Below, piece after piece: positions 15,748-41,015 of a stretch of DNA of 64,000 bases. This stretch comes from an uncultured Gammaproteobacteria bacterium (GTDB lineage Bacteria > Patescibacteriota > Microgenomatia > Levybacterales > UBA12049). A program made the position numbers and the translations under genes. The stretch spans positions 51,229-115,228 of the forward strand of contig CAZIDK010000001.1 of assembly GCA_964537895.1 (NCBI GenBank). The letters run 5' to 3'. Under the pieces are notes generated by a model. It had not been told where the DNA came from. It saw only the letters and a list, made by a program, of their open reading frames with translations, and made no database searches. The number at the start of each line of letters is the position of its first letter. Position 1 is the stretch's first letter.

Positions 15748-18700
15748 TGACTACCTCTTTTTGCGCTTCTTCTTCGCCTGTCTGACCAACGCTTATTTCC
15801 TGCGCTTTTTCAATGACTTCCCCTCCGCCCAACTCTTTTTGAAGTTCTTTAGCCTGCTTTTCTACTTTTTCCTCTGCCTTTTCTTCGGCCGCTGTCTCAA
15901 TTAAAGGCAGGTCTATAGGCTTATCCGAAATTGTTGCACCCATTGGAATAACGTTAAGTCCCAAGGCTTGTAATTCTTTAATTAAAACTTTGAAAGATTC
16001 TGGAACTTTGGGGGTTGGAATATCTGTTCCTTTAACAATTGCCTCAAATGCTTTGGCCCTGCCCACCACATCGTCCGATTTAATTGTTAGCATTTCCTGC
16101 AAAGTATATCTTGCTCTATGTGCTTCAAGTGCCCAAACTTCCATTTCTCCCAAGCGCTGTCCCCCCATTTGTGCTTTTCCGCCCAAGGGCTGCTGCGTAA
16201 CCAAAGAATAAGGCCCTGTTGAACGCGCATGTGTTTTATCTTCAACCATGTGGATTAACTTCATTACATACTCAACTCCGACAACTGCCGGATTATCATA
16301 AGCATCTCCTGTTCTTCCGTCGTAAAGAGTCGCTTTACCGTTTGCGGGAAGTCCGGCTTTTTTAAGTTCGTCGACGATTCTTTGTTCTTGTACTTCTTCA
16401 AAAACCGGAATTCCGACTTTTTTATTCAGCGTTAACTCCGCCCAACCTAAATGAGCTTCTAAAAGCTGACCCAAATTCATACGCGCCAGAACCGAAATTG
16501 GGGAAATAATAATATCAACCGCTGTTCCGTTGGCCAAATGCGGCATATCGACTTCCGGCAAAATTCTTGAAATAACACCTTTGTTTCCGTGTCTTCCTGC
16601 AAGCTTGTCTCCGATTACAACGTGCCTAAATTGAGCAACTTCAACAATAATCTTTCTTAAAGTCCCCGGCTCCAATTCATCGCCTTTTTTCCTGTCAAGA
16701 ATATGAACACTGATGACCGTTCCTCTTTCTCCATGAGGCATTCGAAGCGACGTGTCTCTTACTTCTCTTGCTTGTTCTCCGAATATTGCCCTCAAGAGTC
16801 TTTCCTCCGCAGTTAATTCCGTTTCTCCTTTTGGAGCGATTTTACCCACAATTATATCTCCTGGGCCGACTCCGCTTCCGACAACTACGATTCCGTCTTC
16901 GTCAAGGTTAGCCAAATCCTCTTCGGAAACATTCGGAATATCCCTGGTTGTCTCCTCCGGTCCTAATTTTGTTTCAACCACCGCCGCCTCATATTTTTCA
17001 ATATGAATTGACGACAAAACATCTTCTTTAACTAACCTGTCGGAAATAACAATTCCGTCTTCATATCCAAGGCCGTCTAAAGACGTATAAGCAATTAAAA
17101 GATTTTGTCCGAGAGCCAATTCTCCGTTATCCGAAGCAGGTCCATCAACGAGTAAATCGCCTTTCTTAACTTTTTGGAGCGTAACAACCATTGTTTTTTG
17201 GGTATAAGCGGTTGCCTGAGAAGTTCTTTTGAATGAATCGATATTATAACTTAATTCTTCTTTTTGGCCTTTGCCTTTTATTGTAACTTTGGAAGCGTCC
17301 GCATAGGTAATTTCTCCATCATACGGAGCAAGGATTACTCTTTCCATAACCGAGGATATGGATTTTTCCATACCCGTTCCGACAATTGGACTTTTTGGTA
17401 TTACTAAAGGAACCGCCTGACACTGCATATGGGTTCCCATTAAGGCTCTATTTGCTTCGTCATGGCTTACAAAAGGAATAAGGGACGCCGCGCTTCCGAC
17501 AACCTGTCTTGGAACAACGTCAACAAATTCAACATTTTCCCTTTCGGTTTCAATAAATTCTCCTTGGTATCTTGCCGGCACTCGGTCTTCCTCAATAATA
17601 TCTTTATCGGACAACACTTCCGCGTGGGTAATGTAATGCTCTCTTTCGTCGTCTGCTGTCATGTAAACTAACTCCTTTGTTGCTTTTGAAACAACATTTT
17701 TACCCCTGTTTTCATGAACAACTTTTCTGTAAGGAGATTCTAAAAATCCGTATTCGTTAATTCTTGTATATAAAGCCAAATAGGTTACCAAACCGATATT
17801 CGGACCCTCGGGGCTTCTGATAGGACAGACTCTTGAATACTGCGAGCTGTTTATATCGCGGATAGAAAAAGCCGCTCTTTCCCTGGAAATTCCGCCGGTT
17901 CCCATAACCGTTAAGCGGTTTAGGTTGTCTATTTCGGAAAGCGGGTTTGTTTGGTCTAGGATGGTGGAAAGCTGTGAGGTTCTAAAAAATTCATTGATTG
18001 AGGCCATAATTGGTCTTGCATTAATAAGTCCTGCAATGGAAACAGGAATGTCGGGCTGAATAAGGGTCATTCTTTCTTTTATGCTTCTTTCAAGCCTTAA
18101 AACACCAATTCTAAAAGCAGTGGTCGCAACCAGCTCGCCAACGCATCTAACGCGTCTGTTTGCCAAAGAGTCAATATCGTCAACTCCATTTTCTCCTTTA
18201 GCAAGACTAATAAGAAAACTGATTGCGCCGATAATATCATCTACGGTTAAAATGCGGACATCTTCGTTAGCAGGATTAAAACCTGTTGTTTCCTGTAATT
18301 TTTTATTTATTTTGTATCTTCCGACACCCCCAAGATCATATCTTCTGTTGTTAAAAAACATGCCGTTAAAATTTTCTCTTACTTTGTCTAAAACCACGGG
18401 CTCGCCCGGATGCATTTTTCTGAAAATTTCAATTAGAGCACCTGTTGCGTCTCCCGTTTCGTCTTTTTGCAATGTATTTTGGATGAATGAGGTTTTCCCG
18501 TCTGCCTCCAAGTTTTTGAATTTTTCTCTTATATCGTCATTTGAGGAGATTCCGAGGGCGCGAAGGAAAGTTGAAGCTAAAAACTTTCTTCTTCTGTCAA
18601 TCTTAACCATGATAGTTTCGTGTCTTGTGGTTGTAAATTCAAGCCAAGACCCGTGAACAGGTCTAATTTCCGCTGTGTATAAATTTTTTCCCGTAACATT

Positions 18701-19162
18701 ATCCTGTATAGCTGTAAAGAAAACACCGGGACTTCTAACCAGCTGGCTTACAACCGCTCTTTCTATTCCGTTAACGATAAACGTAGCCCTGTCTGTCATC
18801 TGGGGTATATCTCCTAAGAATACTTCCTGGTCGATTGTTGAGTTGGTTTTTTTATTAATGAGGGTTGCGTTAACATAAAGAGGAGCATCGTAGGTTAATC
18901 CTTTGCTTAAACAGACTGTCGGATCACTGCTGATTTTTCCAAGTCTATAATCTTTCAAAACCAGGTTCCAGTTTTTTTCCGTAAAATCGTCTATTGGGGA
19001 TATTTCCTGAAGAATCTGGGCAATTCCTTTTTCCAAAAACCATTGATAGGATTCTTTTTGAATTTTGAGTAAATCTAAATTAGGTAATAAGGAATGTTGT
19101 TTTCCCCAATTAGTTCTTATAATATGATCCTTGTTGTCTGTCTTATCGGATTTTTTTGCCAT
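15740..19162 (-). CDS. rpoB: DNA-directed RNA polymerase beta subunit
   Basis: Full-length beta homology (1140 aa), conserved regions throughout. Confidence 0.95.
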   Translation of the reverse strand: MAKKSDKTDNKDHIIRTNWGKQHSLLPNLDLLKIQKESYQWFLEKGIAQILQEISPIDDFTEKNWNLVLKDYRLGKISSDPTVCLSKGLTYDAPLYVNATLINKKTNSTIDQEVFLGDIPQMTDRATFIVNGIERAVVSQLVRSPGVFFTAIQDNVTGKNLYTAEIRPVHGSWLEFTTTRHETIMVKIDRRRKFLASTFLRALGISSNDDIREKFKNLEADGKTSFIQNTLQKDETGDATGALIEIFRKMHPGEPVVLDKVRENFNGMFFNNRRYDLGGVGRYKINKKLQETTGFNPANEDVRILTVDDIIGAISFLISLAKGENGVDDIDSLANRRVRCVGELVATTAFRIGVLRLERSIKERMTLIQPDIPVSIAGLINARPIMASINEFFRTSQLSTILDQTNPLSEIDNLNRLTVMGTGGISRERAAFSIRDINSSQYSRVCPIRSPEGPNIGLVTYLALYTRINEYGFLESPYRKVVHENRGKNVVSKATKELVYMTADDEREHYITHAEVLSDKDIIEEDRVPARYQGEFIETERENVEFVDVVPRQVVGSAASLIPFVSHDEANRALMGTHMQCQAVPLVIPKSPIVGTGMEKSISSVMERVILAPYDGEITYADASKVTIKGKGQKEELSYNIDSFKRTSQATAYTQKTMVVTLQKVKKGDLLVDGPASDNGELALGQNLLIAYTSLDGLGYEDGIVISDRLVKEDVLSSIHIEKYEAAVVETKLGPEETTRDIPNVSEEDLANLDEDGIVVVGSGVGPGDIIVGKIAPKGETELTAEERLLRAIFGEQAREVRDTSLRMPHGERGTVISVHILDRKKGDELEPGTLRKIIVEVAQFRHVVIGDKLAGRHGNKGVISRILPEVDMPHLANGTAVDIIISPISVLARMNLGQLLEAHLGWAELTLNKKVGIPVFEEVQEQRIVDELKKAGLPANGKATLYDGRTGDAYDNPAVVGVEYVMKLIHMVEDKTHARSTGPYSLVTQQPLGGKAQMGGQRLGEMEVWALEAHRARYTLQEMLTIKSDDVVGRAKAFEAIVKGTDIPTPKVPESFKVLIKELQALGLNVIPMGATISDKPIDLPLIETAAEEKAEEKVEKQAKELQKELGGGEVIEKAQEISVGQTGEEEAQKEVVNE

Positions 19163-19261: not shown

Positions 19262-19430
19262 AGTTTATACCATAGAAATTAAGCCTGTGTCAAGGAGTAA
19301 AATTTACTCCGAAGACCCTGAGTTAAATCGAACGGGTCAAGCCCCAAATTACAAGAGCGCTGACCCTGAGCGTTACAATCCTGAGCGTAGTCGAAGGAAC
19401 GTCGAAGAGGCAAGGAGTAAAATTTATATC
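19262..19430. repeat. REP/MITE-like repeat, copy C, flanked by a 16-bp direct repeat
   Basis: The 16-mer caaggagtaaaattta occurs at 19291-19306 and 19411-19426. The core shares tcgaacgggtcaag, gaccctgagcgttacaatc and gtcgaaggaa modules with copy F. Confidence 0.55.
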
Positions 19431-19843
19431 AACTTTTCGTAAATTACAAAATCAACGTGGCGGTAATGGTTTTTTAAGTCTCCGGTTTTTACAAAGCCCA
19501 AGGATTCGTAAAATTTTCCCACCTCCCAAGTTTTTCCGGTTATAAGATAGGCTTTATGCCCGCCTTTTTCTTTTGCAAATTCCTCTGCCTTTTTAACCAA
19601 CGCTTTACCGACTCCCGAATGTCTTTTACCTTTTGCAACAATCAAATCATCTATATACAAAACGCCCTCTTGATATTTGCCCGCGATTATTCCCACTGTC
19701 TTACCGTCTTCTCCTGCTTTAAAAACATAATCTTCGTCAATCCACCCCGCTGACTTGCCGTAATATTTAATATCCGCATCAACCCATTCCTTGTCTCTAA
19801 ATTCTTTAATTTCTTCATTGGTAGATTTACTAATCGTAATCAT
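19424..19843 (-). CDS. GNAT family N-acetyltransferase
   Basis: KRHSGVGKALVKKAEEF acetyl-CoA-binding-like motif; 139 aa. Confidence 0.65.
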   Translation of the reverse strand: MITISKSTNEEIKEFRDKEWVDADIKYYGKSAGWIDEDYVFKAGEDGKTVGIIAGKYQEGVLYIDDLIVAKGKRHSGVGKALVKKAEEFAKEKGGHKAYLITGKTWEVGKFYESLGFVKTGDLKNHYRHVDFVIYEKLI

Positions 19844-19849
19844 ACAAAA

Positions 19850-19864
19850 ATTATACCACGCGGG
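19850..19864 (-). promoter_or_regulatory. Conserved promoter module CCCGCG-TGGTATAAT, 7 nt upstream of the ATG (leaderless)
   Basis: Minus sense: taatttCCCGCGTGGTATAATttttgtATG. The same module precedes the genes at 20733, 21859 and 22769. Confidence 0.55.
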
Positions 19865-20037
19865 AAATTAAATCATACTTACGCAAACCTTGCAATCCAA
19901 CAAAGAACGTTAAGGTTTTGTGACTGAGTGCGTCAGGGGAATTCCTCAGCTTACTGAAAGTGAGATTGAGGAAGGGGTGAAATTACCCGACAAACGAAGG
20001 AACAAAAATAGTTCGGCTTGGCTTGCAAAAAGTTTTG

Positions 20038-20058
20038 CGCTACTTTCCAAAAAGTAGC
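20038..20058 (-). terminator. Candidate hairpin terminator downstream of the 20102-20407 gene
   Basis: GCTACTTT-ccaa-AAAGTAGC 8-bp stem, then a ttttt-containing tail in minus sense. Confidence 0.35.
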
Positions 20059-20101
20059 AGAGAAAATTAAATCAAATAAAACCAGCTGCTAAGAAATCAA
20101 A

Positions 20102-20407
20102 CTAAATAATTTTTACTCTGTGAGTAAGAATATTTCCCCACGTCATCATTTGCTCGGCCCACTCAATTTTTTCCTGTTGGGTTTTTATGTTTTTTTTTTC
20201 AAGCAATAAGTATTCTTCCAAGAATTTATCAAAGGTTTTTTGAAAAGGCTTGGAAAGAGAGGATTTATCAATGGAATCTATATACTCTTTTGTTTCTTCC
20301 AAAAAAATATCTATTCTTTTTTTCTTTTTTTCGTAATCATCAGCCGCCAGATTTCCTATTCTATTTAGGTTCATGGCAATATCTAATATTTTTGCTTTAT
20401 TACTCAT
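20102..20407 (-). CDS. Hypothetical small protein (101 aa)
   Basis: ORF only; 4-nt overlap with the upstream gene. Confidence 0.4.
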   Translation of the reverse strand: MSNKAKILDIAMNLNRIGNLAADDYEKKKKRIDIFLEETKEYIDSIDKSSLSKPFQKTFDKFLEEYLLLEKKNIKTQQEKIEWAEQMMTWGNILTHRVKII

Positions 20408-20733
20408 AAAATTAAACTTTTAACTATTCTGTCAAATTCTTTTCTTATTTCGGAAGACATTATATCTCTTGACGGATTGTCCTCACTTGGACGAAGATTT
20501 ATTATTGAATTGTAATCTATTTCTTTTGTTTCTAAATCTACTCCTCCGCCCCAAAGATTTTGCTGTTTTGAGCCCTCACCCAAAAGTTTCTGTTCTCCTT
20601 CAAAATGTCTTTTTCCTCCCCCTGCTAAAATCTCCTGGTCAATATCAACAACTACTTTTATATAACCGTCGAAATCCTCTGCCATTTTTTTTATTTCTTC
20701 TTTAGTTGCTTTTTTATTTATAGTAAGAAGCAT
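20404..20733 (-). CDS. Hypothetical small protein (110 aa); possibly DUF5674-like, a weak recollection
   Basis: Start moved to the ATG at 20733 (MLLTINKK...), which is 9 nt downstream of a conserved CCCCGCGTGGTATAAT module (20743-20758). The ORF-track extension to 20874 would overlap the nuclease gene. Confidence 0.5.
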   Translation of the reverse strand: MLLTINKKATKEEIKKMAEDFDGYIKVVVDIDQEILAGGGKRHFEGEQKLLGEGSKQQNLWGGGVDLETKEIDYNSIINLRPSEDNPSRDIMSSEIRKEFDRIVKSLIL

Positions 20734-20742
20734 CGTTTTTTG

Positions 20743-20758
20743 ATTATACCACGCGGGG
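20743..20758 (-). promoter_or_regulatory. Conserved promoter module CCCCGCG-TGGTATAAT (leaderless), copy 2
   Basis: Minus sense: ccccgcgTGGTATAATcaaaaaacgATG. Confidence 0.55.
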
Positions 20759-20761
20759 AAA

Positions 20762-21469
20762 TTAAGGAAGTGATTCGCAGGCAAGTCCGTCGCCATCGGA
20801 GTCAAGTCTATGCGGATCGCTACTAGGCCCGCCTTGAGATATAAAAAAAGCTTGAGCTTGCGTATGAGTTGCAAAATCAGAGCAATCTTTATCTTCTGCT
20901 ATATTTTGAACAGGAACGCTTTTTGTTGTTGTTGGTTTTACAGTAGTTGGATTATTTACAGGACACGTCCCCCACAAACCCAGATTATTTTCTCTTGCAT
21001 ATCTTTCAAAACTATTAAACTTCTCAAGCATTTTTGTCGGATATTGTTTATAAGAAAAAGCATATCCTTGCTTTATCATTTCTCCATTAATAAAAGTCGC
21101 CTTGCTATCGGGTAAATATACATATCTAAGCAGTCTCTTGTATTTATCTCTGTTTCCCTGCGTTGAATCATCAACCAGTTTTACATATTTTCCTAAGACA
21201 AAAGATTTCATTTTGTCCGACGCGGCCTTACCAAAACACTGAACAGGTTTTCTCGGGTCAACGGTTTCCGGTGTATCTATTCCCAAAAGCCTTACGCTCT
21301 CGTTTTTTCCTCGAATACTAACAGTTATGGTATCTCCGTCGACAACCTTAACAACTTTAAATAATTTTTTCTTATCCATTTCTGAATCCTTATAAGAAAA
21401 GACGGGGTTAGTGTTAAAAACAGAAAGAAGTAAAAAAAACAAGAAGGCAAAAACAAACATTCTCTTCAT
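20762..21469 (-). CDS. Secreted thermonuclease (SNase-like) with a C-terminal Excalibur calcium-binding domain
   Basis: N-terminal signal peptide. A central region resembles the staphylococcal nuclease fold. C-terminal DSDGDGLACE matches the Excalibur DxDxDGxxCE motif. Confidence 0.6.
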   Translation of the reverse strand: MKRMFVFAFLFFLLLSVFNTNPVFSYKDSEMDKKKLFKVVKVVDGDTITVSIRGKNESVRLLGIDTPETVDPRKPVQCFGKAASDKMKSFVLGKYVKLVDDSTQGNRDKYKRLLRYVYLPDSKATFINGEMIKQGYAFSYKQYPTKMLEKFNSFERYARENNLGLWGTCPVNNPTTVKPTTTKSVPVQNIAEDKDCSDFATHTQAQAFFISQGGPSSDPHRLDSDGDGLACESLP

Positions 21470-21476
21470 ACCGGCA

Positions 21477-21485
21477 TTATATCAC
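21477..21485 (-). promoter_or_regulatory. Extended -10 (TGATATAAT) 6 nt upstream of the nuclease ATG
   Basis: Minus sense: ttaggTGATATAATgccggtATG. Confidence 0.45.
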
Positions 21486-21508
21486 CTAAAGTCAGCCGAG
21501 AAAATGAG

Positions 21509-21859
21509 TCATTTCAACTGGCTGTCTGAAAGACCAAAATGATGACCAATTTCGTGGATTACGGTTTGTCTAACTTGAGCTCTTACTTGTTCTTCCGTCT
21601 GCGCCACTTTTTCTATTGCGTTTTTAAAAATTGTGATCTTATCAGGAAGTGTGCTGTAGTAAATTCCTCTTTTCGTCTGCGGAACTCCTTCGTAAAGCCC
21701 CAGAAGTAAAACCCCGAACGGTAGCTTTGATTTTCTAAGTTGGTAAAATGTCGGAAAGTCATCAACAACTACCGAAACATTATTTAGTTTTTCCGCAAAT
21801 TCTTTTGGCATAGAATCCAAGGCTTCTGCAACCAATTCCCTAAATCTTTTTTCATCCAT
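21509..21859 (-). CDS. Small zincin-like metallopeptidase (HExxH)
   Basis: TVIHEIGHHFGLSD contains an HExxH zinc-binding motif; 116 aa. Confidence 0.5.
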   Translation of the reverse strand: MDEKRFRELVAEALDSMPKEFAEKLNNVSVVVDDFPTFYQLRKSKLPFGVLLLGLYEGVPQTKRGIYYSTLPDKITIFKNAIEKVAQTEEQVRAQVRQTVIHEIGHHFGLSDSQLK

Positions 21860-21869
21860 AAGTTAACAA

Positions 21870-21883
21870 ATTATACCACGGGG
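21870..21883 (-). promoter_or_regulatory. Conserved promoter module CCCCG-TGGTATAAT (leaderless), copy 3
   Basis: Minus sense: ccccgTGGTATAATttgttaacttATG. Confidence 0.55.
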
Positions 21884-21918
21884 AGATTTTGACTAGGAAG
21901 TCAAATTAAAATATGGAA

Positions 21919-21944
21919 GTTTAGTTTCTATATCATATATTAAT
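21919..21944. promoter_or_regulatory. 26-bp perfect palindrome TATATCATATATTAATATATGATATA
   Basis: Self-complementary over all 26 nt. Lies between the promoter of 21509-21859 and the 3' end of 22041-22769, so it could be an operator or a cruciform. Confidence 0.5.
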
Positions 21945-22040
21945 ATATGATATAACGGACGCATTACCGGAGCTGGATACTAAGCTTAGTAAGCTTAAAA
22001 GTCAGCGGGAGAATTTAAATTGGGCTAAGAAGTCAAATTA

Positions 22041-22769
22041 TTATTTAAAATATTCTTTTAGTTTTGCAATTTCTTGTTTATAGACTTCTTGGACTAAATC
22101 ATATTCCCAAGGGCTATGATCTTGTCCTTTAAGAATCATAAAAGGCTGGCCTTTTTCTTTAACTATTTCGATAACTTTTTCTCTCAACGGTTTGCTAATA
22201 AATCTGTCTTTCTCTCCGAAAACAAGATGTATTCCCCCCATATAATCCTGCAAACATTTAAAGACATTCGCGTCGTGTGCTTCTTTCCAAAACCTCCCTT
22301 TATATTTTTGTCCCCCTTCTTCAAATACCTCATCATAACCTCCTTTAAAATCTCCGTCGTTTACGCCGGGAACCCAAAGAAAAATACAGGGAATTTTATT
22401 TTTTATTTCCGTTCTTGAAGTAGCAACCGTAATTGCGGCGGCGCCCATGCTTTGCCCCATTAAAGTAACTTTATATCCCAAATCTAAATATTTCTTAGTA
22501 AAATAAACAATTGTGTTAATCCATTCGTTATAAGAAACGTCCAAAAAATCTCCATCGGAATTGCCGTTATTTGGCAGGTCAAAACGCAAAACCGAAAAGC
22601 CTTCTTTATTTAAAAGTCTTTGAAAATCAACAAACTGTCTTGCAGGCCCTACCGAAGCTCCTCTAAATCCATGAACCATAATTACTATCTTTTTTTGAGA
22701 TGAGTCGGGTTCGGAGAAATAACAAAAGATTTTCTTTCCGCTAATTTCTTCAAAATATACTTTCTCCAT
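22041..22769 (-). CDS. Alpha/beta hydrolase
   Basis: GQSMGAA nucleophile elbow (GxSxG) and an HG oxyanion motif (MVHGFRG). Confidence 0.7.
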   Translation of the reverse strand: MEKVYFEEISGKKIFCYFSEPDSSQKKIVIMVHGFRGASVGPARQFVDFQRLLNKEGFSVLRFDLPNNGNSDGDFLDVSYNEWINTIVYFTKKYLDLGYKVTLMGQSMGAAAITVATSRTEIKNKIPCIFLWVPGVNDGDFKGGYDEVFEEGGQKYKGRFWKEAHDANVFKCLQDYMGGIHLVFGEKDRFISKPLREKVIEIVKEKGQPFMILKGQDHSPWEYDLVQEVYKQEIAKLKEYFK

Positions 22770-22775
22770 AATATG

Positions 22776-22790
22776 AGTATATCACGGGGG
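22776..22790 (-). promoter_or_regulatory. Conserved promoter module CCCCCG-TGATATACT (leaderless), copy 4
   Basis: Minus sense: cccccgTGATATACTcatattATG. Confidence 0.45.
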
Positions 22791-22800
22791 AAAATTCGTG

Positions 22801-22895
22801 GCTAATTATAATCTCTTCGAGCTCCTCGAGTCTGAGCCTCGGCGTCGAAGACCTGAGTCTCAGAGCCGAAGGCCTGAGTGAGTCGAAGGAGAAGT
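22801..22895. repeat. REP/MITE-like repeat, copy D (contains an exact 45-nt duplicate of 40884-40928)
   Basis: 22813-22857 (ctcttcgagctcctcgagtctgagcctcggcgtcgaagacctgag) equals 40884-40928. Followed by imperfect ~13-nt tandem units (ccgaaggcctgag-like). Confidence 0.7.
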
Positions 22896-22927
22896 CAAAT
22901 TAATTTTTCTTGCCTTATAATCAAATT

Positions 22928-23134
22928 CTATTTTGTATTTATTAAAAAATAGGGGAGGTTTTCCTGTGGAACTTTGAATAACGTGGGTTTTTTATATCCC
23001 TTTTGTAAAGCCTCTTTGTAGGCCTTTTCGGCGTTTTTATTTGAGCTAATAACTTTTTTTAGAGATTCATCTAGGGCTACCCACATTCCTTTATATTTAT
23101 TGAATATTTTAGTCAAATTTGTACTCATTTTCAT
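22928..23134 (-). CDS. Small antitoxin-like protein (DUF5678-like)
   Basis: 68 aa; the KGMWVAL...KKVISS...KPTLFKVP pattern recalls DUF5678. No partner toxin gene is adjacent. Confidence 0.4.
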   Translation of the reverse strand: MKMSTNLTKIFNKYKGMWVALDESLKKVISSNKNAEKAYKEALQKGYKKPTLFKVPQENLPYFLINTK

Positions 23135-23173
23135 GTTGTGTTAATTATAACATAATAATGGAAATTGAAAAAC

Positions 23174-23257
23174 CCGCGGGTTGAGCGGAGCGAAATACTC
23201 CTTACTATGAGTAGAGCGAAATGGTGAGTGCGATTGAACCACTAAGAAGTCAGATTA
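23174..23257. repeat. Direct repeat flanking the toxin-antitoxin cassette, copy 1
   Basis: cgggttgagcgRagcRaaat...ggtgagtg...gaaccactaagaagtcaRatta, shared with 24040-24099 in the same orientation. Confidence 0.7.
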
Positions 23258-23409: not shown

Positions 23410-23616
23410 ATGCCAGATATAATTGAAACAAAACCAAACATCCTAGGCGGAATGCCAGTTATAAAAGGAACTAGGATTCCTATCGCGCGTGTTGTGGCAT
23501 TATATGTTCAAGGCTATAAGATAAAAGATTTCAAGAGAGATTATCCTTATCTCACAATTACAAAAGAGGATATAGCAAACATATTCTCCCATTATTCTCA
23601 CCTTGCATCAAAATAA
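23410..23616 (+). CDS. DUF433 family antitoxin-like protein
   Basis: GGMPVIKGTRIPIARVV matches the DUF433 core. TATAAT is 5 nt upstream of the ATG. Confidence 0.6.
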   Translation: MPDIIETKPNILGGMPVIKGTRIPIARVVALYVQGYKIKDFKRDYPYLTITKEDIANIFSHYSHLASK

Positions 23617-23962
23617 GAATACAAACAAAAAGCGTAAGTTTAGATTATTATTAGATTCTGCATTTGCTAAACCTGATCAATTTCCCAAGCTAGCTAAAAA
23701 GGCAAAGTTATTACATGTAGTTCATGATTTGGGATTATCTAAACAGGCTGCGGATATAGATATCTACCAAAAGGCACTTGAAGAAAACTGCTTCGTATTA
23801 ACAATTAACTTTAGGCATTTTAGGAAGTTTGTTGTTAGTGGTAAACCGGGAGTAATTGGAATAGATTCGCAGCTGTCTAATGACGAAATTGACTCAATTG
23901 TTGTAAAGTTTATCTCTGGGAAAAATCCTGATGACTTTCTAGGAAAAGCTATTAAAATTTAA
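23603..23962 (+). CDS. DUF5615 (PIN-like / Mut7-C RNase-like) toxin-like protein
   Basis: LLLDSAF...VVHDLGL...ADIDIYQKALEENCFVLTINFRHF...GVIGI pattern of DUF5615. Overlaps the DUF433 gene by 14 nt, a typical toxin-antitoxin arrangement. Confidence 0.55.
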   Translation: MHQNKNTNKKRKFRLLLDSAFAKPDQFPKLAKKAKLLHVVHDLGLSKQAADIDIYQKALEENCFVLTINFRHFRKFVVSGKPGVIGIDSQLSNDEIDSIVVKFISGKNPDDFLGKAIKI

Positions 23963-24045
23963 CTGCTTTCTACAATTTTTATTTCTTCCGGAGTGAGGGC
24001 TGAAAGATTAGTCCAAAAAACCGCAGAGGCTAAGGTTTTCCCGCC
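23959..24045 (-). pseudogene. Remnant 3' end of a DNA methyltransferase-like gene (ends ...LSALTPEEIKIVESS*)
   Basis: The minus-strand frame encodes the TaqI_C-like C-terminal tail (LTxEEIxIVE) seen in N6-adenine methyltransferases / type IIG enzymes, but no long ORF precedes it. The 21-mer ttctacaatttttatttcttc recurs at 26050-26070. Confidence 0.4.
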
Positions 24046-24099
24046 GGGTTGAGCGAAGCAAAATGGTGAGTGAAATCGAACCACTAAGAAGTCAAATTA
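24040..24099. repeat. Direct repeat flanking the toxin-antitoxin cassette, copy 2
   Basis: Matches 23174-23257 and ends with the same gaaccactaagaagtcaaatta motif. Confidence 0.7.
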
Positions 24100-24118: not shown

Positions 24119-24781
24119 TTATAGTTGTTCCGTTAAGAATCTTTGCACTCCTTCAAGCATAGATTTGACATCCTCTGTCTTGTATTCACTAAATTTACCA
24201 TGGTCAGCACTGTCTCTTATTGCTTTCCAGGCTTGGATTTGTTTCTGAAGCAATCGATTGTAAATTTCTTTGTCTGCTAACTTTGCATTAAGCGATCCAA
24301 TATCATCGCCTGATTTGACATCTATTGTGTGTTTTTGTGCAATTTGTCTTAAACCGTTTTCTAAAACAGCACCTACAAGAGAAGCAGCGGAGTCTTTATA
24401 ATTATTGTCCAAAAGATGTTTGGCCATCTGGATAAAATCAGTAAAAATCTCTGCGCTTACTAAATCCCTAACTTTCGTTAAATATCCAAGTTCCAGATCT
24501 TCCTTCAGCGCTTTAAGAATGCCTACACCGTGATCAACATCTCCCGGGAAGGCTGACTTAACTTCCTCAACAAAATTTTTATAATAAGGGCTGTTTTCTC
24601 CGCAAACCAACAGGATGAAGTTTTGTGCATTATTTTTCCACTCGTGAAACGAAGCAGTATTAACTCTGTCAGGAGCCACAGCATAAGCCGAACTGTTGCT
24701 ATAACGCGTAGAAGCAACGCTTTGTGCTTTTGTCAGAAGCTGTGTAGCGCGTTCAATAAGTTTTTCTGTTGTTGAGTTCAT
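24119..24781 (-). CDS. HEPN-like protein (Rx4H motif near the C-terminus)
   Basis: All-helical 220-aa protein with AIRDSADHGKF (R-x4-H), the HEPN RNase signature. Sits 20 nt downstream of the DUF1508 gene and has its own GAGGA Shine-Dalgarno. Confidence 0.4.
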   Translation of the reverse strand: MNSTTEKLIERATQLLTKAQSVASTRYSNSSAYAVAPDRVNTASFHEWKNNAQNFILLVCGENSPYYKNFVEEVKSAFPGDVDHGVGILKALKEDLELGYLTKVRDLVSAEIFTDFIQMAKHLLDNNYKDSAASLVGAVLENGLRQIAQKHTIDVKSGDDIGSLNAKLADKEIYNRLLQKQIQAWKAIRDSADHGKFSEYKTEDVKSMLEGVQRFLTEQL

Positions 24782-26044: not shown

Positions 26045-26185
26045 GAATTTTCTACAATTTTTATTTCTTCGGGGGTTAGTCCGTAAAGTTTGTAAACTTC
26101 TTCATCGATTTTTTTATCTATCTTTTCAATTTCAGCTTTTATCGAATTCCATTGATTAGAATTTTCTGAAGTAGCCAATATTTTT
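26041..26185 (-). pseudogene. Remnant 3' end of a DNA methyltransferase-like gene (ends ...IDEEVYKLYGLTPEEIKIVENS*)
   Basis: The minus-strand frame reads SENSNQWNSIKAEIEKIDKKIDEEVYKLYGLTPEEIKIVENS*, a TaqI_C-like C-terminal tail. Only about 45 codons, preceded by a stop. Shares ttctacaatttttatttcttc with 23968-23988. Confidence 0.45.
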
Positions 26186-32787: not shown

Positions 32788-34671
32788 ATGTTGACTGCTA
32801 AAGAAATTATTGACATCTACATTAGTTTTTTTGAAAAGCGGGGACATAAGAGGATTGCTAATTCCCCTCTTGTTCCGGAAAATGACCCAACAACTCTTTT
32901 TACTTCTAGTGGGATGCAGCCTTTAATCCAATATTTATTGGGAGAACAACATCCTCAAGGAACACGTCTTGTAAACGTCCAGAATAGCTTTAGAGCGCAG
33001 GATATAGAGGAAGTCGGAGATAACCGCCACACAACTTTTTTTCGGATGCTTGGCAACTGGAGTTTAGGCGATTACTTCAAGAGTGAGGAAATCCCCTGGC
33101 TTTGGGAATTTTTAACTGTTGAACTCGGACTGCCAAAAGAAAAATTATTTATTACGGTTTTCAAGGGAGACGGGAATGTGGGATTTGATAATGAAAGTGA
33201 AGAGATTTGGAAAGAAGTGTTACTAAAATCCTTCGGCGTTGCTCAGGATCATAGAATTTTTAAAGGAGACGTTTCTATGAATTGGTGGTCTAGAAGCGGA
33301 GTGCCGGATAATATGCCAGTTGGTGAACCCGGTGGGCCGGATAGCGAAGTATATTTTAGATTTGATGATGTAGAACACGCAAAAGAATGCAAAGATAATC
33401 CTGTTGAGTGTGAATGCGGAAAGTTTTTGGAAATTGCCAATGCCGTTTTTATGCAATACATAAAAACGGAAAAGGGATTTGAAGAGCTTCCAAAAAAAAA
33501 TGTAGATTTTGGCGGAGGTTTGGAAAGATTATTGGCCGCTGTTGAAAATAAAAGCGATATGTTCGAGACTTCCCTTTTTACGCCAATTATAAAAGCTATT
33601 GAGCAAGAGTCGGGCAAAAAATATCAAGAACATAAAAAAGAGATGCAAATTATAAGCGACCACTTTGCAGGAAGTTTATTTATTGCCGCAAATGGAATTA
33701 CTCCTTCAAAAACCGAACAGGGATATATTTTAAGAAGACTTTTAAGACGCGCCTTTGACAATTTTAAAAAGCTCGGAGGAACCCATTCGGCAGGCTCAGG
33801 GCAAGCAAACATAGAAAAAGTTTTAGAAAAAATAGTTGAGCAGTATTCTGTAACTGATGAAATTCTAAAAGACAAATATGAAGAAATAAAATTTGTAATT
33901 TTAGAAGAGAAACAAGGATACGAAAAAACAGTTACAAGAGCGATAAGAATTGTAGATGAAATTCATGTTTCCGAGGGTTCAAACGTAGGAATGGAAATAA
34001 AAAATATTTCGGCGGATGATGCTTTTAAAATGTATACAACTCACGGACTTTCCCCAACCCAAATAAAAAGTTTAGGATATAGTTTTGATGAGCAGGAATT
34101 TGCAAATAAAATGGAGGGACATCAAAAGCTATCAAGAGCAGGTGCTTCTCAGAAATTCAAAGGCGGATTGGCAGACACAAGTGAACAAACAATCATGGGG
34201 CATACCGCTACCCATTTACTGCACCAGGCACTAAGAGATGTTTTGGGAAATAAGCTTCACCAAACAGGCAGTAATATTACAACGCAGCGTGTAAGATTTG
34301 ATTTTAATTATGATAAGTCTTTGACCAAAGAGGAATTGAAAAAAGTCGAAGATATTGTTAATAAGAAGATTGAGGAGAATTTGTCTGTGCATTTTGAAAT
34401 AATGCCTTTGCAAAAAGCAAAAGACTTGGGTGCAGTCGGACTTTTTGATGAAAAGTATGCCAAAGATGTAAAAGTGTATTTTATAGGAAGCCCTTCGACG
34501 GGTGGTTCGATTGATCACTCACCACGCGTTCATATGCAAGCATATTCACGCGAATTCTGCGGGGGACCGCATGTTGATTTTACAGGTAAGCTTAAAAGGT
34601 TTAAAATAATAAAGCAGGACAATGTCGGACATGGACAAAGACGGATTTACGCCGTAGTTAATAATAAATAA
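32788..34671 (+). CDS. alaS: Alanine--tRNA ligase, short form lacking the C-terminal C-Ala domain
   Basis: N-terminal catalytic-domain homology (FFRMLGNWSLGDYFK). Editing-domain zinc motifs HTATHLLH and CGGPHV. 627 aa, against about 875 aa in typical bacteria. TATAAT is 6 nt upstream of the ATG. Confidence 0.9.
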   Translation: MLTAKEIIDIYISFFEKRGHKRIANSPLVPENDPTTLFTSSGMQPLIQYLLGEQHPQGTRLVNVQNSFRAQDIEEVGDNRHTTFFRMLGNWSLGDYFKSEEIPWLWEFLTVELGLPKEKLFITVFKGDGNVGFDNESEEIWKEVLLKSFGVAQDHRIFKGDVSMNWWSRSGVPDNMPVGEPGGPDSEVYFRFDDVEHAKECKDNPVECECGKFLEIANAVFMQYIKTEKGFEELPKKNVDFGGGLERLLAAVENKSDMFETSLFTPIIKAIEQESGKKYQEHKKEMQIISDHFAGSLFIAANGITPSKTEQGYILRRLLRRAFDNFKKLGGTHSAGSGQANIEKVLEKIVEQYSVTDEILKDKYEEIKFVILEEKQGYEKTVTRAIRIVDEIHVSEGSNVGMEIKNISADDAFKMYTTHGLSPTQIKSLGYSFDEQEFANKMEGHQKLSRAGASQKFKGGLADTSEQTIMGHTATHLLHQALRDVLGNKLHQTGSNITTQRVRFDFNYDKSLTKEELKKVEDIVNKKIEENLSVHFEIMPLQKAKDLGAVGLFDEKYAKDVKVYFIGSPSTGGSIDHSPRVHMQAYSREFCGGPHVDFTGKLKRFKIIKQDNVGHGQRRIYAVVNNK

Positions 34672-39150: not shown

Positions 39151-39262
39151 TATGACCCATTCGGGGCTTCGACTGAGCTCAGCCGAATGTCCAAACTCAG
39201 GCCTTCGGCTCTGAGGCTCAGGCTCGAAGAGATTCTGAGTAAATCGAAGAATGAGGAAATCG
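39151..39262. repeat. REP/MITE-like repeat, copy E (inverted orientation of the ccgaaggcctgag units)
   Basis: Contains ctcaggccttcggctctgag, the reverse complement of the unit in copies D and F, plus the local palindrome gactgagctcagcc. Confidence 0.55.
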
Positions 39263-40835: not shown

Positions 40836-41015
40836 ATGTCAAGCCCCGATTATAATCTGGGCGCAGACCCTGAGTGTTACAATCTCTTCGAGCTCCTCGA
40901 GTCTGAGCCTCGGCGTCGAAGACCTGAGCGGTTCGACTGAGCTCACCGTCGAAGTCCTCAGAGCCGATGGCCTGAGCGAAGTCGAAGGAAAATCGAACGG
41001 GTCAAGAGTCAGATT
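40836..41015. repeat. REP/MITE-like repeat, copy F (longest; bounded by gtcaag motifs)
   Basis: Contains all family modules, including the exact 45-nt match to copy D (40884-40928). Both ends share gggtcaag. Confidence 0.7.

What the first reader, a model, noticed from the sequence alone, without database searches (positions are those of the whole stretch)
19850..22790. Consecutive island genes each carry the same promoter module CCCGYG-TGGTATAAT placed 6-10 nt from the start codon (leaderless cassettes)
Upstream of the ATGs at 19843, 20733, 21859 and 22769 (all minus strand), the sense sequence reads ...CCCGCGTGGTATAAT-N7-10-ATG. The 21469 gene has the variant TGATATAAT-N6-ATG. Several copies are followed by a recurring GAAGTCAAATTA motif at the cassette 3' boundary (21890-21901, 22029-22040, 22884-22895, 23243-23254, 24088-24099). 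An extended -10 (TGnTATAAT) that close to the start codon implies leaderless mRNAs with no Shine-Dalgarno. The conserved GC-rich CCCGCG block next to the -10 box and the shared boundary motif suggest the genes were acquired as modular promoter-plus-gene cassettes, or share one regulator.
Basis: seen in the sequence. Interest (0 to 1): 0.6.

Follow-up and report, generated by a model that had tools for sequence, protein, structure and literature searches.

The report
Leaderless gene promoters in CPR bacterium
The repeated TGGTATAAT boxes right next to start codons are real promoters for messages with no leader. This is the normal way genes start in this group of tiny uncultured bacteria (Levyibacteriota), so only a small local variant of the promoter is unusual.

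Summary
The window comes from a Candidatus Levyibacteriota (CPR/Patescibacteria) genome. The flagged stretch lies in a 13.6-kb variable region between rpoB and alaS.

CCCGCGTGGTATAAT is exact at two sites, a third reads TCCCCGTGGTATAAT and a fourth CCCCCGTGATATACT. All four lie 6-10 nt from an ATG.

The leaderless reading is well supported but is not specific to the island:
- In 80 related genomes, 54% of all TGNTATAAT sites lie 6-10 nt upstream of a long ORF.
- The start codon there is ATG in 106 of 111 cases.
- SD-like motifs are rare.

This matches the known "group C" leaderless architecture.

GAAGTCAAATTA is not a 3' cassette mark. It is the reverse complement of TAATTTGACTTC, the lineage's extended -35 box, which abuts the previous stop codon because intergenic regions are minimal. 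The island copies are promoter halves, either split by a GC-rich repeat or orphaned by gene loss.

The C-rich block is real and non-random, at about 2.5% of lineage promoters. It is gene-linked and older than this genome: hydrolase orthologs elsewhere carry it. It is dispensable, since the GNAT ortholog lacks it. It most likely reflects propagation and turnover within one promoter family. A regulator site is not excluded. No integrase or attC-like site is present.

The parts
19850..19872 (-). GNAT promoter TTTAATTTCCCGCGTGGTATAAT. The -10 hexamer is 19850-19855 and the TG is 19857-19858, 6 nt before ATG 19843.
   Evidence: family D2. The ortholog in L086 reads aaattttttCGTGGTATAATttttgtATG, so the CCCG block is absent there.
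19424..19843 (-). GNAT acetyltransferase gene (139 aa)
   Evidence: Pfam Acetyltransf_10/1/7.
20743..20765 (-). DUF5674-operon promoter TTAATTTCCCCGCGTGGTATAAT, 9 nt before ATG 20733. It overlaps the stop codon of the SNase gene.
   Evidence: The 28 nt are identical in L086, where the flanking SNase gene is only 82% identical. The same 20-mer sits upstream of DUF5674 in L084 behind a different upstream gene.
20102..20733 (-). Two-gene unit: DUF5674 (20404-20733, 109 aa) and a 101-aa partner (20102-20407). The ATGA overlap suggests translational coupling.
   Evidence: Pfam DUF5674 covers residues 5-106 of 109. The unit is 90% identical over 661 nt in L084.
21476..21484 (-). SNase promoter TGATATAAT, 6 nt before ATG 21469. 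It is preceded by CTCGGCTGACTTTAGG, a decayed C-block plus a -35-like box.
   Evidence: The L086 ortholog uses a different promoter, ccTTGACTTCTTAAcctcaaaagagTATCTT, with a 20-nt leader.
20762..21469 (-). Secreted staphylococcal-nuclease homolog with an Excalibur domain (235 aa)
   Evidence: Pfam SNase and Excalibur.
21870..21908 (-). Composite Zincin_1 promoter TAATTTGACTTCCTAGTCAAAATCTCCCCGTGGTATAAT. TTGACT lies 23 nt from TATAAT, and the -10 lies 10 nt before ATG 21859.
   Evidence: The L097 ortholog has TAATTTGACTTCTTAGCCGCGTGGTATAAT. Other orthologs have a plain TGnTATAAT.
21509..21859 (-). Zincin_1 metallopeptidase-like gene (116 aa)
   Evidence: Pfam Zincin_1.
21909..22040 (-). Orphan promoter remnant. 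It begins TAATTTGACTTCTTAGCCCAATTTAAATTCTCCCGCTGACTTTTAAG straight after the hydrolase stop codon, and no ORF follows.
   Evidence: In L095 the same position downstream of the hydrolase holds TTTGACTTCTTAGCCACtaaagagTATAAAaagttaATG, which drives a 92-aa gene.
22776..22804 (-). Hydrolase promoter TAGCCAcgAATTTTCCCCCGTGATATACT. It has a -35-like TAGCCA, a 17-nt spacer that contains the C-block, and an extended -10 that lies 6 nt before ATG 22769.
   Evidence: It is orthologous to L095 TTAGCCACAAAATTTCCCCAGTGGTATACTtggattATG and L093 AATTTTCCCCAGTGATATAATtagattATG.
22805..22890 (-). GC-rich palindromic repeat element inserted between TTGACTTC and TTAGCCAC of the hydrolase promoter
   Evidence: 48 nt are 100% identical to 40881-40928. 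Further matches lie at 39195-39222 and 40957-40989. The fold is -41.8 kcal/mol, z = -3.0. L095 has the uninterrupted promoter.
22891..22902 (-). TAATTTGACTTC: the -35 half of the hydrolase promoter, separated from its -10 by the repeat insertion
22041..22769 (-). Alpha/beta hydrolase gene (242 aa), widespread in Levyibacteriota
   Evidence: Pfam. 391 homologs at E<=1e-10, 60-83% identical among those listed. The neighbours differ in all 9 orthologous contexts examined.
23144..23152 (-). DUF5678 promoter TGTTATAAT, 9 nt before ATG 23134
23208..23257 (-). Copy of a 50-nt repeat that starts with TAATCTGACTTCTTAG and has no -10 at promoter spacing
   Evidence: family D1, 84% identical to 24050-24099.
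24050..24099 (-). Second copy of the 50-nt repeat, starting TAATTTGACTTCTTAG. It lies between convergent genes and is followed by a relic ORF end (...LTPEEIKIVESS*).
   Evidence: The same 22 nt recur at 26049-26070.
20088..20104 (-). Degenerate copy TAGTTTGATTTCTTAGC that overlaps the stop codon of the 101-aa gene
   Evidence: family D7. L086 has TAATAAGACTTCTAAGC at the same place.

Best explanation
The stretch is part of a 13.6-kb variable region between rpoB and alaS in a Candidatus Levyibacteriota (CPR) genome.

Each small gene or two-gene unit is transcribed from its own sigma-70-type extended -10 promoter (TGnTATAAT). The promoter ends 6-10 nt before the ATG. Transcription should therefore start at or within about 4 nt of the start codon, and the mRNA is translated without a Shine-Dalgarno sequence (inferred).

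This is the lineage's standard gene-start design, not an island feature. Intergenic regions are minimal. As a result, the -35 region of the next promoter (TAATTTGACTTC, usually followed by TTAG) abuts or even includes the previous gene's TAA stop codon. That is why it looked like a 3' boundary motif.

In the island these compact promoters have been stretched, split or orphaned by two processes: insertion of a GC-rich palindromic repeat, and gene loss. The -35 half stays next to the previous stop codon. The TG-extended -10, which should not need a -35 (inferred from established promoter biology), stays next to the start codon.

The C-rich block (AAWTYTCCCC(N0-2)G) lies in the spacer just upstream of the TG. 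It marks one promoter family that stands in front of unrelated genes. The family spreads and changes through promoter propagation, short conversion tracts and indels, while single genes relocate together with their promoters.
For: Shown here.

1. Lineage. The 80 best RpoB matches are Levyibacteriota/Patescibacteria MAGs or records with unspecific titles.

2. Leaderless design is window-wide and lineage-wide.
- 9 of 13 TGNTATAAT sites in the window lie 6-10 nt from a start codon, including sites outside the island.
- In relatives the figure is 89 of 164.
- 366 of 1687 first-ATG ORF starts have a -10-like hexamer 5-11 nt upstream. Their PWM shows TG at -15/-14 and TTG at a 17-nt spacing, which identifies the motif as a promoter and not a ribosome-binding site. 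The PWM shows no C enrichment.
- SD-like motifs occur at only 11.5% of starts, and hardly any are visible in the window.
- The start codon after these boxes is ATG 106 times and GTG 5 times.

3. TAATTTGACTTC is a -35 box. In L002, L003, L005, L010, L095, L097 and window 4059 it sits 15-18 nt from a -10 hexamer that is followed by ATG, often directly after a TAA stop.

4. Split promoter. L095 has TTAATTTGACTTCTTAGCCACAAAATTTCCCCAGTGGTATACT-N6-ATG before the hydrolase. The window has the same two halves separated by a repeat, 48 nt of which are 100% identical to 40881-40928.

5. Variable region. L086 (80-87% nt identity) has only GNAT, one small gene and SNase between rpoB and alaS. In several relatives alaS is directly next to rpoB.

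6. The C-block is gene-linked and old. It is present before hydrolase orthologs in L093, L095 and L100, and before DUF5674 in L084 and L086.

7. The C-block is dispensable and changeable. The GNAT ortholog in L086 has TTTT in place of CCCG. Zincin_1 orthologs in L002, L007, L011 and L016 lack it. L097 has CCGCGTGGTATAAT.

Published background. A Pribnow box 6-8 nt from gene starts is the signature of leaderless 'group C' genomes (PMC6028130).
Against: - No transcription start sites were mapped, so 'leaderless' rests on geometry and statistics.
- For the 9- and 10-nt spacings a 2-4 nt leader is expected rather than none.
- The C-block spacer is conserved in hydrolase promoters of three genomes whose proteins are only about 80% identical. 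The 28-nt DUF5674 module is identical between the window and L086, whose flanks are 82% identical (0.82^28 is about 0.004, my calculation). That points to selection on the block, which neutral propagation does not explain.
- TAATTTGACTTCTTAG is conserved over 16 nt, more than a -35 hexamer needs.
- The same motif also occurs where no co-directional gene follows (24099, and L099).
Confidence: 0.7

Rival explanations
1. The C-rich block (AATTTCCCC..G) is an operator for a transcription factor. It lies in the promoter spacer, so the GNAT, DUF5674, Zincin_1 and hydrolase genes form a small co-regulated set.
For: - The block is rare in the lineage (9 of 358 promoters) yet present in 4 of 5 consecutive promoters here.
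- It is conserved in the spacer of hydrolase promoters in the window, L093 and L095, while the 6 nt before the ATG vary.
- It is 28/28 identical in L086 against 82% flanks.
- In L003 and L005 related sequences form GGGGA...TCCCC inverted repeats in promoter regions.
Against: - The window copies show no dyad symmetry.
- The distance from the block to the -10 varies: 0-2 nt here, 10 nt in L100, and upstream of a -35 box at 22014 and in L003.
- The GNAT ortholog (L086) and four Zincin_1 orthologs function without the block.
- The exact 20-mer occurs only once in the 863-kb contig of L086.
- No candidate regulator was identified.
Confidence: 0.15
2. The genes are cassettes of a site-specific or repeat-mediated shuffling system, like an integron. 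TAATTTGACTTCTTAG and/or the C-block module would be the recombination site.
For: - Single genes flanked on both sides by TAATTTGACTTCTTAG(CCAC) occur in L095 and the window.
- Hydrolase orthologs sit in nine different neighbourhoods.
- Zincin_1 and the hydrolase are adjacent in both L097 and the window, but in opposite order.
- The homology between L084 and the window starts exactly at the 5' edge of the module.
- The motif is present where no downstream gene follows (24099, L099).
Against: - No integrase, recombinase or transposase is encoded in the 13.6-kb region.
- There is no attC-like folded site. Folding of the promoter regions gives z-scores of -1.4 to +1.1.
- Every unit has its own promoter, unlike integron cassettes.
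- Most copies of the motif in relatives are ordinary -35 boxes at 17-nt spacing.
- The orphan copies sit next to gene relics, so gene decay explains them.
Confidence: 0.05
3. The TATAAT-like box near the ATG is not a promoter. It would be an A/T-rich non-SD translation signal on leadered transcripts that start further upstream, as in 'group B' genomes.
For: - SD motifs are almost absent from all genes.
- The genes are co-directional and closely spaced, with only one terminator-like site on their strand, so read-through transcripts are likely.
Against: - The box carries the RNA-polymerase-specific TG at -15/-14 and a TTG signal exactly 17 nt upstream.
- It is found before first genes and divergent genes such as alaS, not before overlapping internal genes such as 20407.
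- The spacing peak at 6-7 nt matches the -10-to-start distance of bacterial RNA polymerase (established knowledge; PMC6028130).
Confidence: 0.05

Closest known systems
Leaderless-transcription gene starts of 'group C' bacteria (GeneMarkS-2 classification; Mycobacterium tuberculosis, Deinococcus deserti)
   Same: A Pribnow box lies about 6-8 nt upstream of the start codon, no SD is present, ATG starts dominate, and roughly a quarter to a half of transcription units are affected (PMC6028130).
   Different: - Here the genome is AT-rich (37% GC) and belongs to the CPR.
- The TG extension is strongly conserved.
- SD-like motifs are rare even at the remaining genes.
- I found no paper in the searchable library that describes this for CPR/Patescibacteria.
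Extended -10 (TGn) sigma-70 promoters, including the Gram-positive '-16 region' TRTG (own knowledge)
   Same: The TGnTATAAT consensus is present. CGTGGTATAAT fits RTGn. The -35 box is variable or absent when the TG is present. An exact 17-nt TTGACT is seen when the -10 is weak and lacks TG.
   Different: Independence from the -35 box was not tested here. The conserved C-rich spacer next to the TG has no described counterpart that I know of.
Promoter propagation / putative mobile promoters (Matus-Garcia, Nijveen and van Passel 2012; own knowledge, not read here)
   Same: Near-identical 20-40-nt promoter sequences stand upstream of non-homologous genes (GNAT, DUF5674, Zincin_1, hydrolase). Non-orthologous promoter replacement is seen when orthologs are compared.
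   Different: No association with IS elements was seen in the window. The copies are clustered within 3 kb. The mechanism (conversion, or recombination at short repeats) is only inferred.
Integron gene-cassette arrays
   Same: There is a row of unrelated small genes in one orientation with a recurring short motif at gene boundaries, inside a variable region.
   Different: No IntI, no attC structure and no common Pc promoter are present. Each gene has its own promoter.
REP/BIME- or MITE-like intergenic repeats
   Same: The GC-rich element at 22805-22890 is dispersed (39.2 kb, 40.9 kb, 19.3 kb), palindromic and strictly intergenic.
   Different: Its family membership was not tested. It appears to insert next to TTGAC (-35) boxes, with CTTGAC direct repeats flanking copies at 19.3 kb and 40.9 kb.

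Membership tests
Leaderless ('group C') gene-start architecture | -10 (Pribnow) box localized about 6-10 nt upstream of the start codon, genome-wide | tested here: met
   9 of 13 sites in the window and 89 of 164 in relatives lie at 6-10 nt, with the peak at 6-7. 366 of 1687 ORF starts qualify.
Leaderless ('group C') gene-start architecture | No Shine-Dalgarno sequence between promoter and start codon | tested here: met
   Only 6-10 nt are available, and no GGAG-type motif is visible. SD-like motifs occur at 11.5% of all starts.
Leaderless ('group C') gene-start architecture | Strong preference for AUG start codons | tested here: met
   106 ATG against 5 GTG and 0 TTG after TGNTATAAT-N6-10.
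Leaderless ('group C') gene-start architecture | Transcription start mapped at or within a few nt of the start codon | not testable with these tools
   This needs dRNA-seq, Cappable-seq or 5' RACE. The organism is uncultured.
Extended -10 sigma-70 promoter | TG dinucleotide one base upstream of a TATAAT-like hexamer | tested here: met
   TGG/TGA/TGT + TATAAT or TATACT at 19850, 20743, 21476, 21870, 22776 and 23144. The PWM gives T 0.60 and G 0.52.
Extended -10 sigma-70 promoter | Activity independent of a -35 hexamer | not testable with these tools
   Only indirect evidence exists: the TTGACT-to--10 distance is 12-30 nt when TG is present and 15-18 nt when it is absent.
Integron gene cassettes | Tyrosine recombinase IntI adjacent to the array | tested here: not met
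   Pfam scans of all 19 ORFs I selected (>=67 aa) between rpoB and alaS show no integrase or recombinase.
Integron gene cassettes | attC site (imperfect inverted repeats that fold into a hairpin) at each cassette's 3' end | tested here: not met
   The promoter and boundary regions fold no better than shuffled sequence (z from -1.4 to +1.1). Only the unrelated GC-rich repeat folds well.
Integron gene cassettes | Cassettes generally lack promoters and are expressed from Pc | tested here: not met
   Every unit has its own extended -10 box next to the ATG.
Propagated / mobile promoter family | Homologous promoter sequence upstream of non-homologous genes | tested here: met
   23-nt family D2. A 40-nt composite is shared by window Zincin_1 and the L095 hydrolase. 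CCGCGTGGTATAAT is shared by L097 Zincin_1 and window GNAT/DUF5674.
Propagated / mobile promoter family | Orthologous genes in relatives carry a different promoter (evidence of replacement) | tested here: met
   Zincin_1 in L002, L007, L011 and L016; hydrolase in L091, L094, L097 and L098; GNAT and SNase in L086.
Regulon with a shared operator | Motif conserved at a fixed position in orthologous promoters, with a cognate DNA-binding protein | tested here: inconclusive
   The motif is conserved for the hydrolase (3-4 of 9 orthologs) and for DUF5674 (3 of 3 close ones). It is lost for GNAT and Zincin_1 orthologs, and its position varies. No regulator was identified.

The most novel reading that the evidence does not exclude
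The conserved 16-21-nt TAATTTGACTTCTTAG(CCAC) box and the AATTTCCCC-GTGGTATAAT module may be more than promoter elements. They could act as short portable junctions at which single leaderless genes are excised, swapped and reinserted among Levyibacteriota genomes. That would be a recombinase-free, or unknown-recombinase, cassette system in which the promoter itself is the recombination site. Alternatively, the C-block could be the operator of an undescribed CPR regulator.
Probability: 0.12. Interest if true: 0.6.

Novelty: new member of a known kind. Interest (0 to 1): 0.3.

Why it matters
The result gives a concrete, testable rule for gene starts in an uncultured CPR phylum: about a quarter of genes appear to be leaderless, driven by TGnTATAAT boxes, and Shine-Dalgarno use is rare. 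That matters for three reasons:
- It affects start-codon annotation of thousands of CPR MAGs.
- It bears on how the reduced CPR ribosome initiates translation.
- It helps the design of expression tools for these organisms.

The result also shows how compact promoters are split, orphaned and copied in a variable region. The flagged motifs are otherwise ordinary promoter parts, not a new genetic system.

Tried and rejected
- **Rfam.** The whole window at gathering threshold, and 19-26.3 kb at E<=1, gave nothing relevant.
- **RNA folding.** All promoter and boundary regions were folded and no conserved structure appeared.
- **Generic promoter scan.** The sigma-70 (-35 plus -10) scan found 18 sites against 17.9 expected. 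It is uninformative because it requires a -35 box.
- **Recombinases.** Pfam scans of all 19 ORFs I selected (>=67 aa) in the variable region found no integrase or recombinase.
- **Strict motif in relatives.** CCCG[CT]GTGGTATAAT is absent from 1.5 Mb of related rpoB loci. This first suggested a genome-private motif. Looser searches and hydrolase orthologs later showed the block is older.
- **Metagenome scan.** ATTTCCC(N)GCGTGGTATAAT gave 9 hits. Only L084 and L086 are relevant; the others come from GC-rich unrelated genomes and look like chance.
- **A|m|B, A|m|C, D|m|B junction pattern.** It looked like a recombination site. On inspection, L086's 'different' downstream gene is a divergent allele of the same operon, with most of DUF5674 deleted: MIITKS... 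is fused to MKNKQILG....
- **Loose C-block pattern.** It mostly hits coding DNA and is uninformative.
- **First promoter PWM.** The version without start filtering was pure noise.
- **Literature.** Searches for leaderless plus CPR, Patescibacteria or Saccharibacteria returned only incidental mentions.

Full report
**What is in the sequence**

Read on the minus strand, 19.0-24.8 kb holds a row of small genes upstream of rpoB (15740-19162) and rpoC. Pfam assigns them as follows:

| Coordinates | Strand | Product |
|---|---|---|
| 19424-19843 | - | GNAT acetyltransferase |
| 20404-20733 | - | DUF5674 protein |
| 20102-20407 | - | overlapping 101-aa partner of DUF5674 |
| 20762-21469 | - | staphylococcal-nuclease/Excalibur protein |
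| 21509-21859 | - | Zincin_1 protein |
| 22041-22769 | - | alpha/beta hydrolase |
| 22928-23134 | - | DUF5678 protein |
| 23410-23962 | + | DUF433/DUF5615 pair |
| 24119-24781 | - | HEPN protein |

The claimed motif is partly as described.
- CCCGCGTGGTATAAT is exact at 19850-19864 and 20743-20757.
- 21870-21884 reads TCCCCGTGGTATAAT. Together these are 3 hits against 0.08 expected.
- The copy before ATG 22769 is CCCCCGTGATATACT.
- The -10-to-ATG gaps are 6, 9, 10 and 6 nt, and TGATATAAT-N6-ATG at 21469 is correct.
A variant lies at 23246-23257.

**Whose genome, and is this an island?**

The 80 best RpoB matches among 185,579 species genomes are mostly MAGs labelled Candidatus Levyibacteriota or Patescibacteria; the rest carry unspecific or evidently wrong titles. 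The best is 81% identical, so the genome itself is not in that collection.

In 51 of these loci alaS lies within 10 kb upstream of rpoB on the opposite strand. In several it is directly adjacent. In the window alaS starts at 32788, so 13.6 kb separate it from rpoB.

A much closer relative turned up in the metagenome motif scan. L086 is an 863-kb contig with 80-87% nucleotide identity to the window. It has only GNAT, one small gene and the nuclease between rpoB and alaS.

The window's extra genes include Zincin_1, the hydrolase, toxin-antitoxin-like pairs, HEPN, an HTH/ImmA-like pair, RadC, a Schlafen-type helicase, MazG-like, a beta-lactamase-fold protein and DUF2207. None is an integrase or transposase. 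'Island' is therefore a fair description.

**Leaderless starts are the rule in this lineage**

TGNTATAAT occurs 13 times in the window against 3.0 expected. Nine of the 13 lie 6-10 nt upstream of an ORF of at least 50 aa. These include alaS (32772) and genes at 2977, 3365 and 30722, which are outside the island. The upstream 60 nt of all long ORFs show almost no Shine-Dalgarno motif.

Across the related loci (about 1.5 Mb):
- 89 of 164 TGNTATAAT sites lie 6-10 nt upstream of a long ORF, with the peak at 6-7 nt.
- 366 of 1687 first-ATG ORF starts have a -10-like hexamer 5-11 nt upstream.
- Aligned on that hexamer, these promoters show T/G enrichment at -15/-14 (0.60/0.52) and a TTG signal exactly 17 nt upstream. 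The box is therefore an RNA-polymerase promoter and not a ribosome-binding signal.
- SD-like motifs occur at 11.5% of starts.
- The start codon after these boxes is ATG 106 times and GTG 5 times, as expected if the 5'-terminal AUG itself recruits the ribosome.

This is the architecture that the GeneMarkS-2 paper calls group C: a Pribnow box 6-8 nt from gene starts and 25-50% leaderless transcripts (PMC6028130). I found no paper in the searchable library that reports it for CPR bacteria.

It is a lineage property, not a cassette property.

**What GAAGTCAAATTA really is**

In relatives, TAATTTGACTTC usually sits 15-18 nt upstream of a -10 hexamer that is followed 6-10 nt later by ATG. Examples:
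- L010: TAATTTGACTTCttagtcatcggagagTATTTTcatagtATG
- L003: ...TATTCTctgattatcaATG
- L005: ...TATAAAggggttgATG
- L095: TAATTTGACTTCTTAGCCACtaaagagTATAAAaagttaATG
- window 4059

The motif is the -35 box (TTGACT) with conserved flanks. Its leading TAA is frequently the stop codon of the preceding gene, because intergenic regions are only about 45 nt long. That is why it looks like a 3' boundary.

When the -10 is weak and lacks TG, the spacing is exactly 17 nt. When the -10 is TG-extended, the distance to TTGACT varies:

| Distance (nt) | Promoter |
|---|---|
| 12 | L005 |
| 14 | L097 Zincin_1 |
| 23 | window Zincin_1 |
| 26 | L095 hydrolase |
| about 30 | L100 |

This is consistent with established knowledge that extended -10 promoters do not need a -35 box.

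The island copies that lack a nearby -10 are explained case by case.
- **22902.** This is the -35 half of the hydrolase promoter. L095 has the intact TTAATTTGACTTC-TTAGCCACAAAATTTCCCCAGTGGTATACT-N6-ATG. The window has the same two halves separated by an 86-nt GC-rich palindromic repeat. 48 nt of that repeat are 100% identical to 40881-40928, and further copies lie at 39.2 and 19.3 kb. It folds at z = -3.0.
- **22040.** This copy corresponds to the promoter of a 92-aa gene that follows the hydrolase in L095 and is missing here.
- **24099 and 23257.** These are two copies of a 50-nt repeat. The first is followed by a relic ORF end...PEEIKIVESS*. Its 22-nt core recurs at 26049-26070. These copies therefore look like leftovers of decayed genes.

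**The C-rich block**

The C-rich block is the only feature special to this stretch. A CCC run in the 10 nt upstream of the TG occurs in 9 of 358 comparable promoters of relatives (2.5%), and the lineage PWM shows no C enrichment there. Four such promoters among five consecutive ones is not chance.

It is not private to this genome.
- Hydrolase orthologs in other metagenomes carry AATTTTCCCCAGTGATATAAT (L093), AAATTTCCCCAGTGGTATACT (L095) and a more distant TTTTCCC (L100).
- Four others (L091, L094, L097, L098) have plain extended -10 boxes, and one (L099) overlaps its upstream gene.
- The DUF5674 module is 28/28 identical in L086, where the flanking nuclease gene is 82% identical. It also precedes DUF5674 in L084 behind a different upstream gene (VapC-like, next to an rve transposase fragment).

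It is dispensable.
- The GNAT promoter of L086 is aaattttttCGTGGTATAATttttgtATG. Four adjacent differences replace CCCG.
- Zincin_1 orthologs in L002, L007, L011 and L016 lack the block.
- L097's Zincin_1 promoter reads TAATTTGACTTCTTAGCCGCGTGGTATAAT. It shares CCGCGTGGTATAAT with the window's GNAT and DUF5674 promoters.

Its position varies.
- In the hydrolase promoter the block lies inside a 17-nt spacer between a -35-like TAGCCA and the -10.
- Elsewhere it lies directly upstream of a second -35-like box (22014, L003 7720).
- In L003 and L005 the same 10-mer forms one arm of terminator-type hairpins.

**Most likely mechanism and history**

These are ordinary extended -10 promoters producing leaderless or near-leaderless mRNAs. 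The four C-block promoters belong to one promoter family, TAATTTGACTTCYTAG...AAWTYTCCCC(N0-2)GTGRTATAMT. This family has come to stand in front of unrelated genes. It changes by indels, short conversion-like tracts and repeat insertions.

Single genes relocate together with their promoters:
- Hydrolase orthologs have different neighbours in all nine contexts examined.
- Zincin_1 and the hydrolase are adjacent in both L097 and the window, but in opposite order.

The local conservation of the block could mean it also has a function, such as a regulator site or a promoter-strength element. That remains the main rival.

**Integron-like systems and other rejected readings**

An integron-like system is not supported. 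There is no integrase, no attC-like fold, and each unit has its own promoter.

A three-way junction pattern (same module, different partners) initially looked like a recombination site. It dissolved on inspection. L086's 'different' downstream gene is a divergent allele of the same operon, with most of DUF5674 deleted. MIITKSAPFTKEEIR is fused to MKNKQILG..., which matches the N-termini of DUF5674 and its partner in L010 and L022.

**Verdict**

The finding is real but mostly ordinary for its lineage. It is a new member (CPR/Levyibacteriota) of the known leaderless, extended -10 gene-start architecture. In addition there is a small propagated promoter variant whose C-rich spacer is unexplained.

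Noticed in passing
window 22805-22890, 40850-41006, 39160-39235, 19290-19420: A dispersed GC-rich, palindromic intergenic repeat family built from CTCAGG and TTCGAC words, in a 37% GC genome. One 48-nt stretch is 100% identical between 22810-22857 and 40881-40928. Copies lie next to TTGAC (-35) boxes.
   Followed up: partly
window 19290-19341 vs L086 1320-1345: Compared with L086, the rpoB promoter of the window carries a 47-nt insertion (CCGTTCGATTTAACTCAGGGTCTTCGGAGTAAATTTTACTCCTTGAC) flanked by CTTGAC direct repeats. The duplication restores a TTGACA-N17-TATAAA promoter. The copy at 40.85-41.0 kb is also flanked by CTTGAC.
   Followed up: partly
window 19938-20059: A 122-nt segment in the GNAT-upstream intergenic region is absent from L086. 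Its origin is unknown.
   Followed up: no
window 23963-24000 and 26045-26070 (minus strand): Two relic ORF ends encode ...PEEIKIVE(S/N)S* and share 22 identical nt. From memory, the motif resembles the C-terminal tail of some restriction-modification methyltransferases. They look like gene fragments left in intergenic space.
   Followed up: no
window 23208-23257 and 24050-24099: A 50-nt repeat (84% identical) begins with the -35-type box TAATYTGACTTCTTAG. It is followed by GCTC(C)GCTCAACCCG(G)CGGG and has no -10 at promoter spacing. Its function is unknown: possibly a decayed promoter plus 5' gene fragment, or a small element.
   Followed up: partly
window 9806-9907 (minus strand): Rfam calls a 102-nt tRNA (51 bits), but ARAGORN finds no tRNA anywhere in the window. 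It may be a tRNA with an intron or another insertion.
   Followed up: no
window 24.1-29.2 kb: A cluster of defence-type genes: HEPN, a DUF433/DUF5615 pair, DUF1508, an HTH plus ImmA/IrrE (M78) pair, RadC, a Schlafen-group-3-type helicase (641 aa) and a MazG-like protein. It lies between rpoB and alaS and is absent from L086.
   Followed up: no
L086 1909-2223 (minus strand): The 104-aa ORF behind the conserved promoter module looks like an in-frame fusion. The first ~15 codons come from a DUF5674 gene (MIITKSAPFTKEEIR) and the rest is its downstream partner (MKNKQILGALALD...), so most of DUF5674 has been deleted.
   Followed up: partly
TAATTTGACTTCTTAG, e.g. window 22025-22040, 24084-24099: The conserved 16-mer contains a stop codon in each of the three reading frames (TAA, TGA, TAG). 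This may be incidental. It would nonetheless end any read-through translation at every gene boundary.
   Followed up: no
L097 556-1659 vs window 21509-22769: Zincin_1 and the hydrolase are neighbours in both genomes but in opposite order (Zincin_1 then hydrolase in L097; hydrolase then Zincin_1 in the window). This fits duplication and loss, or shuffling, of single-gene units.
   Followed up: no
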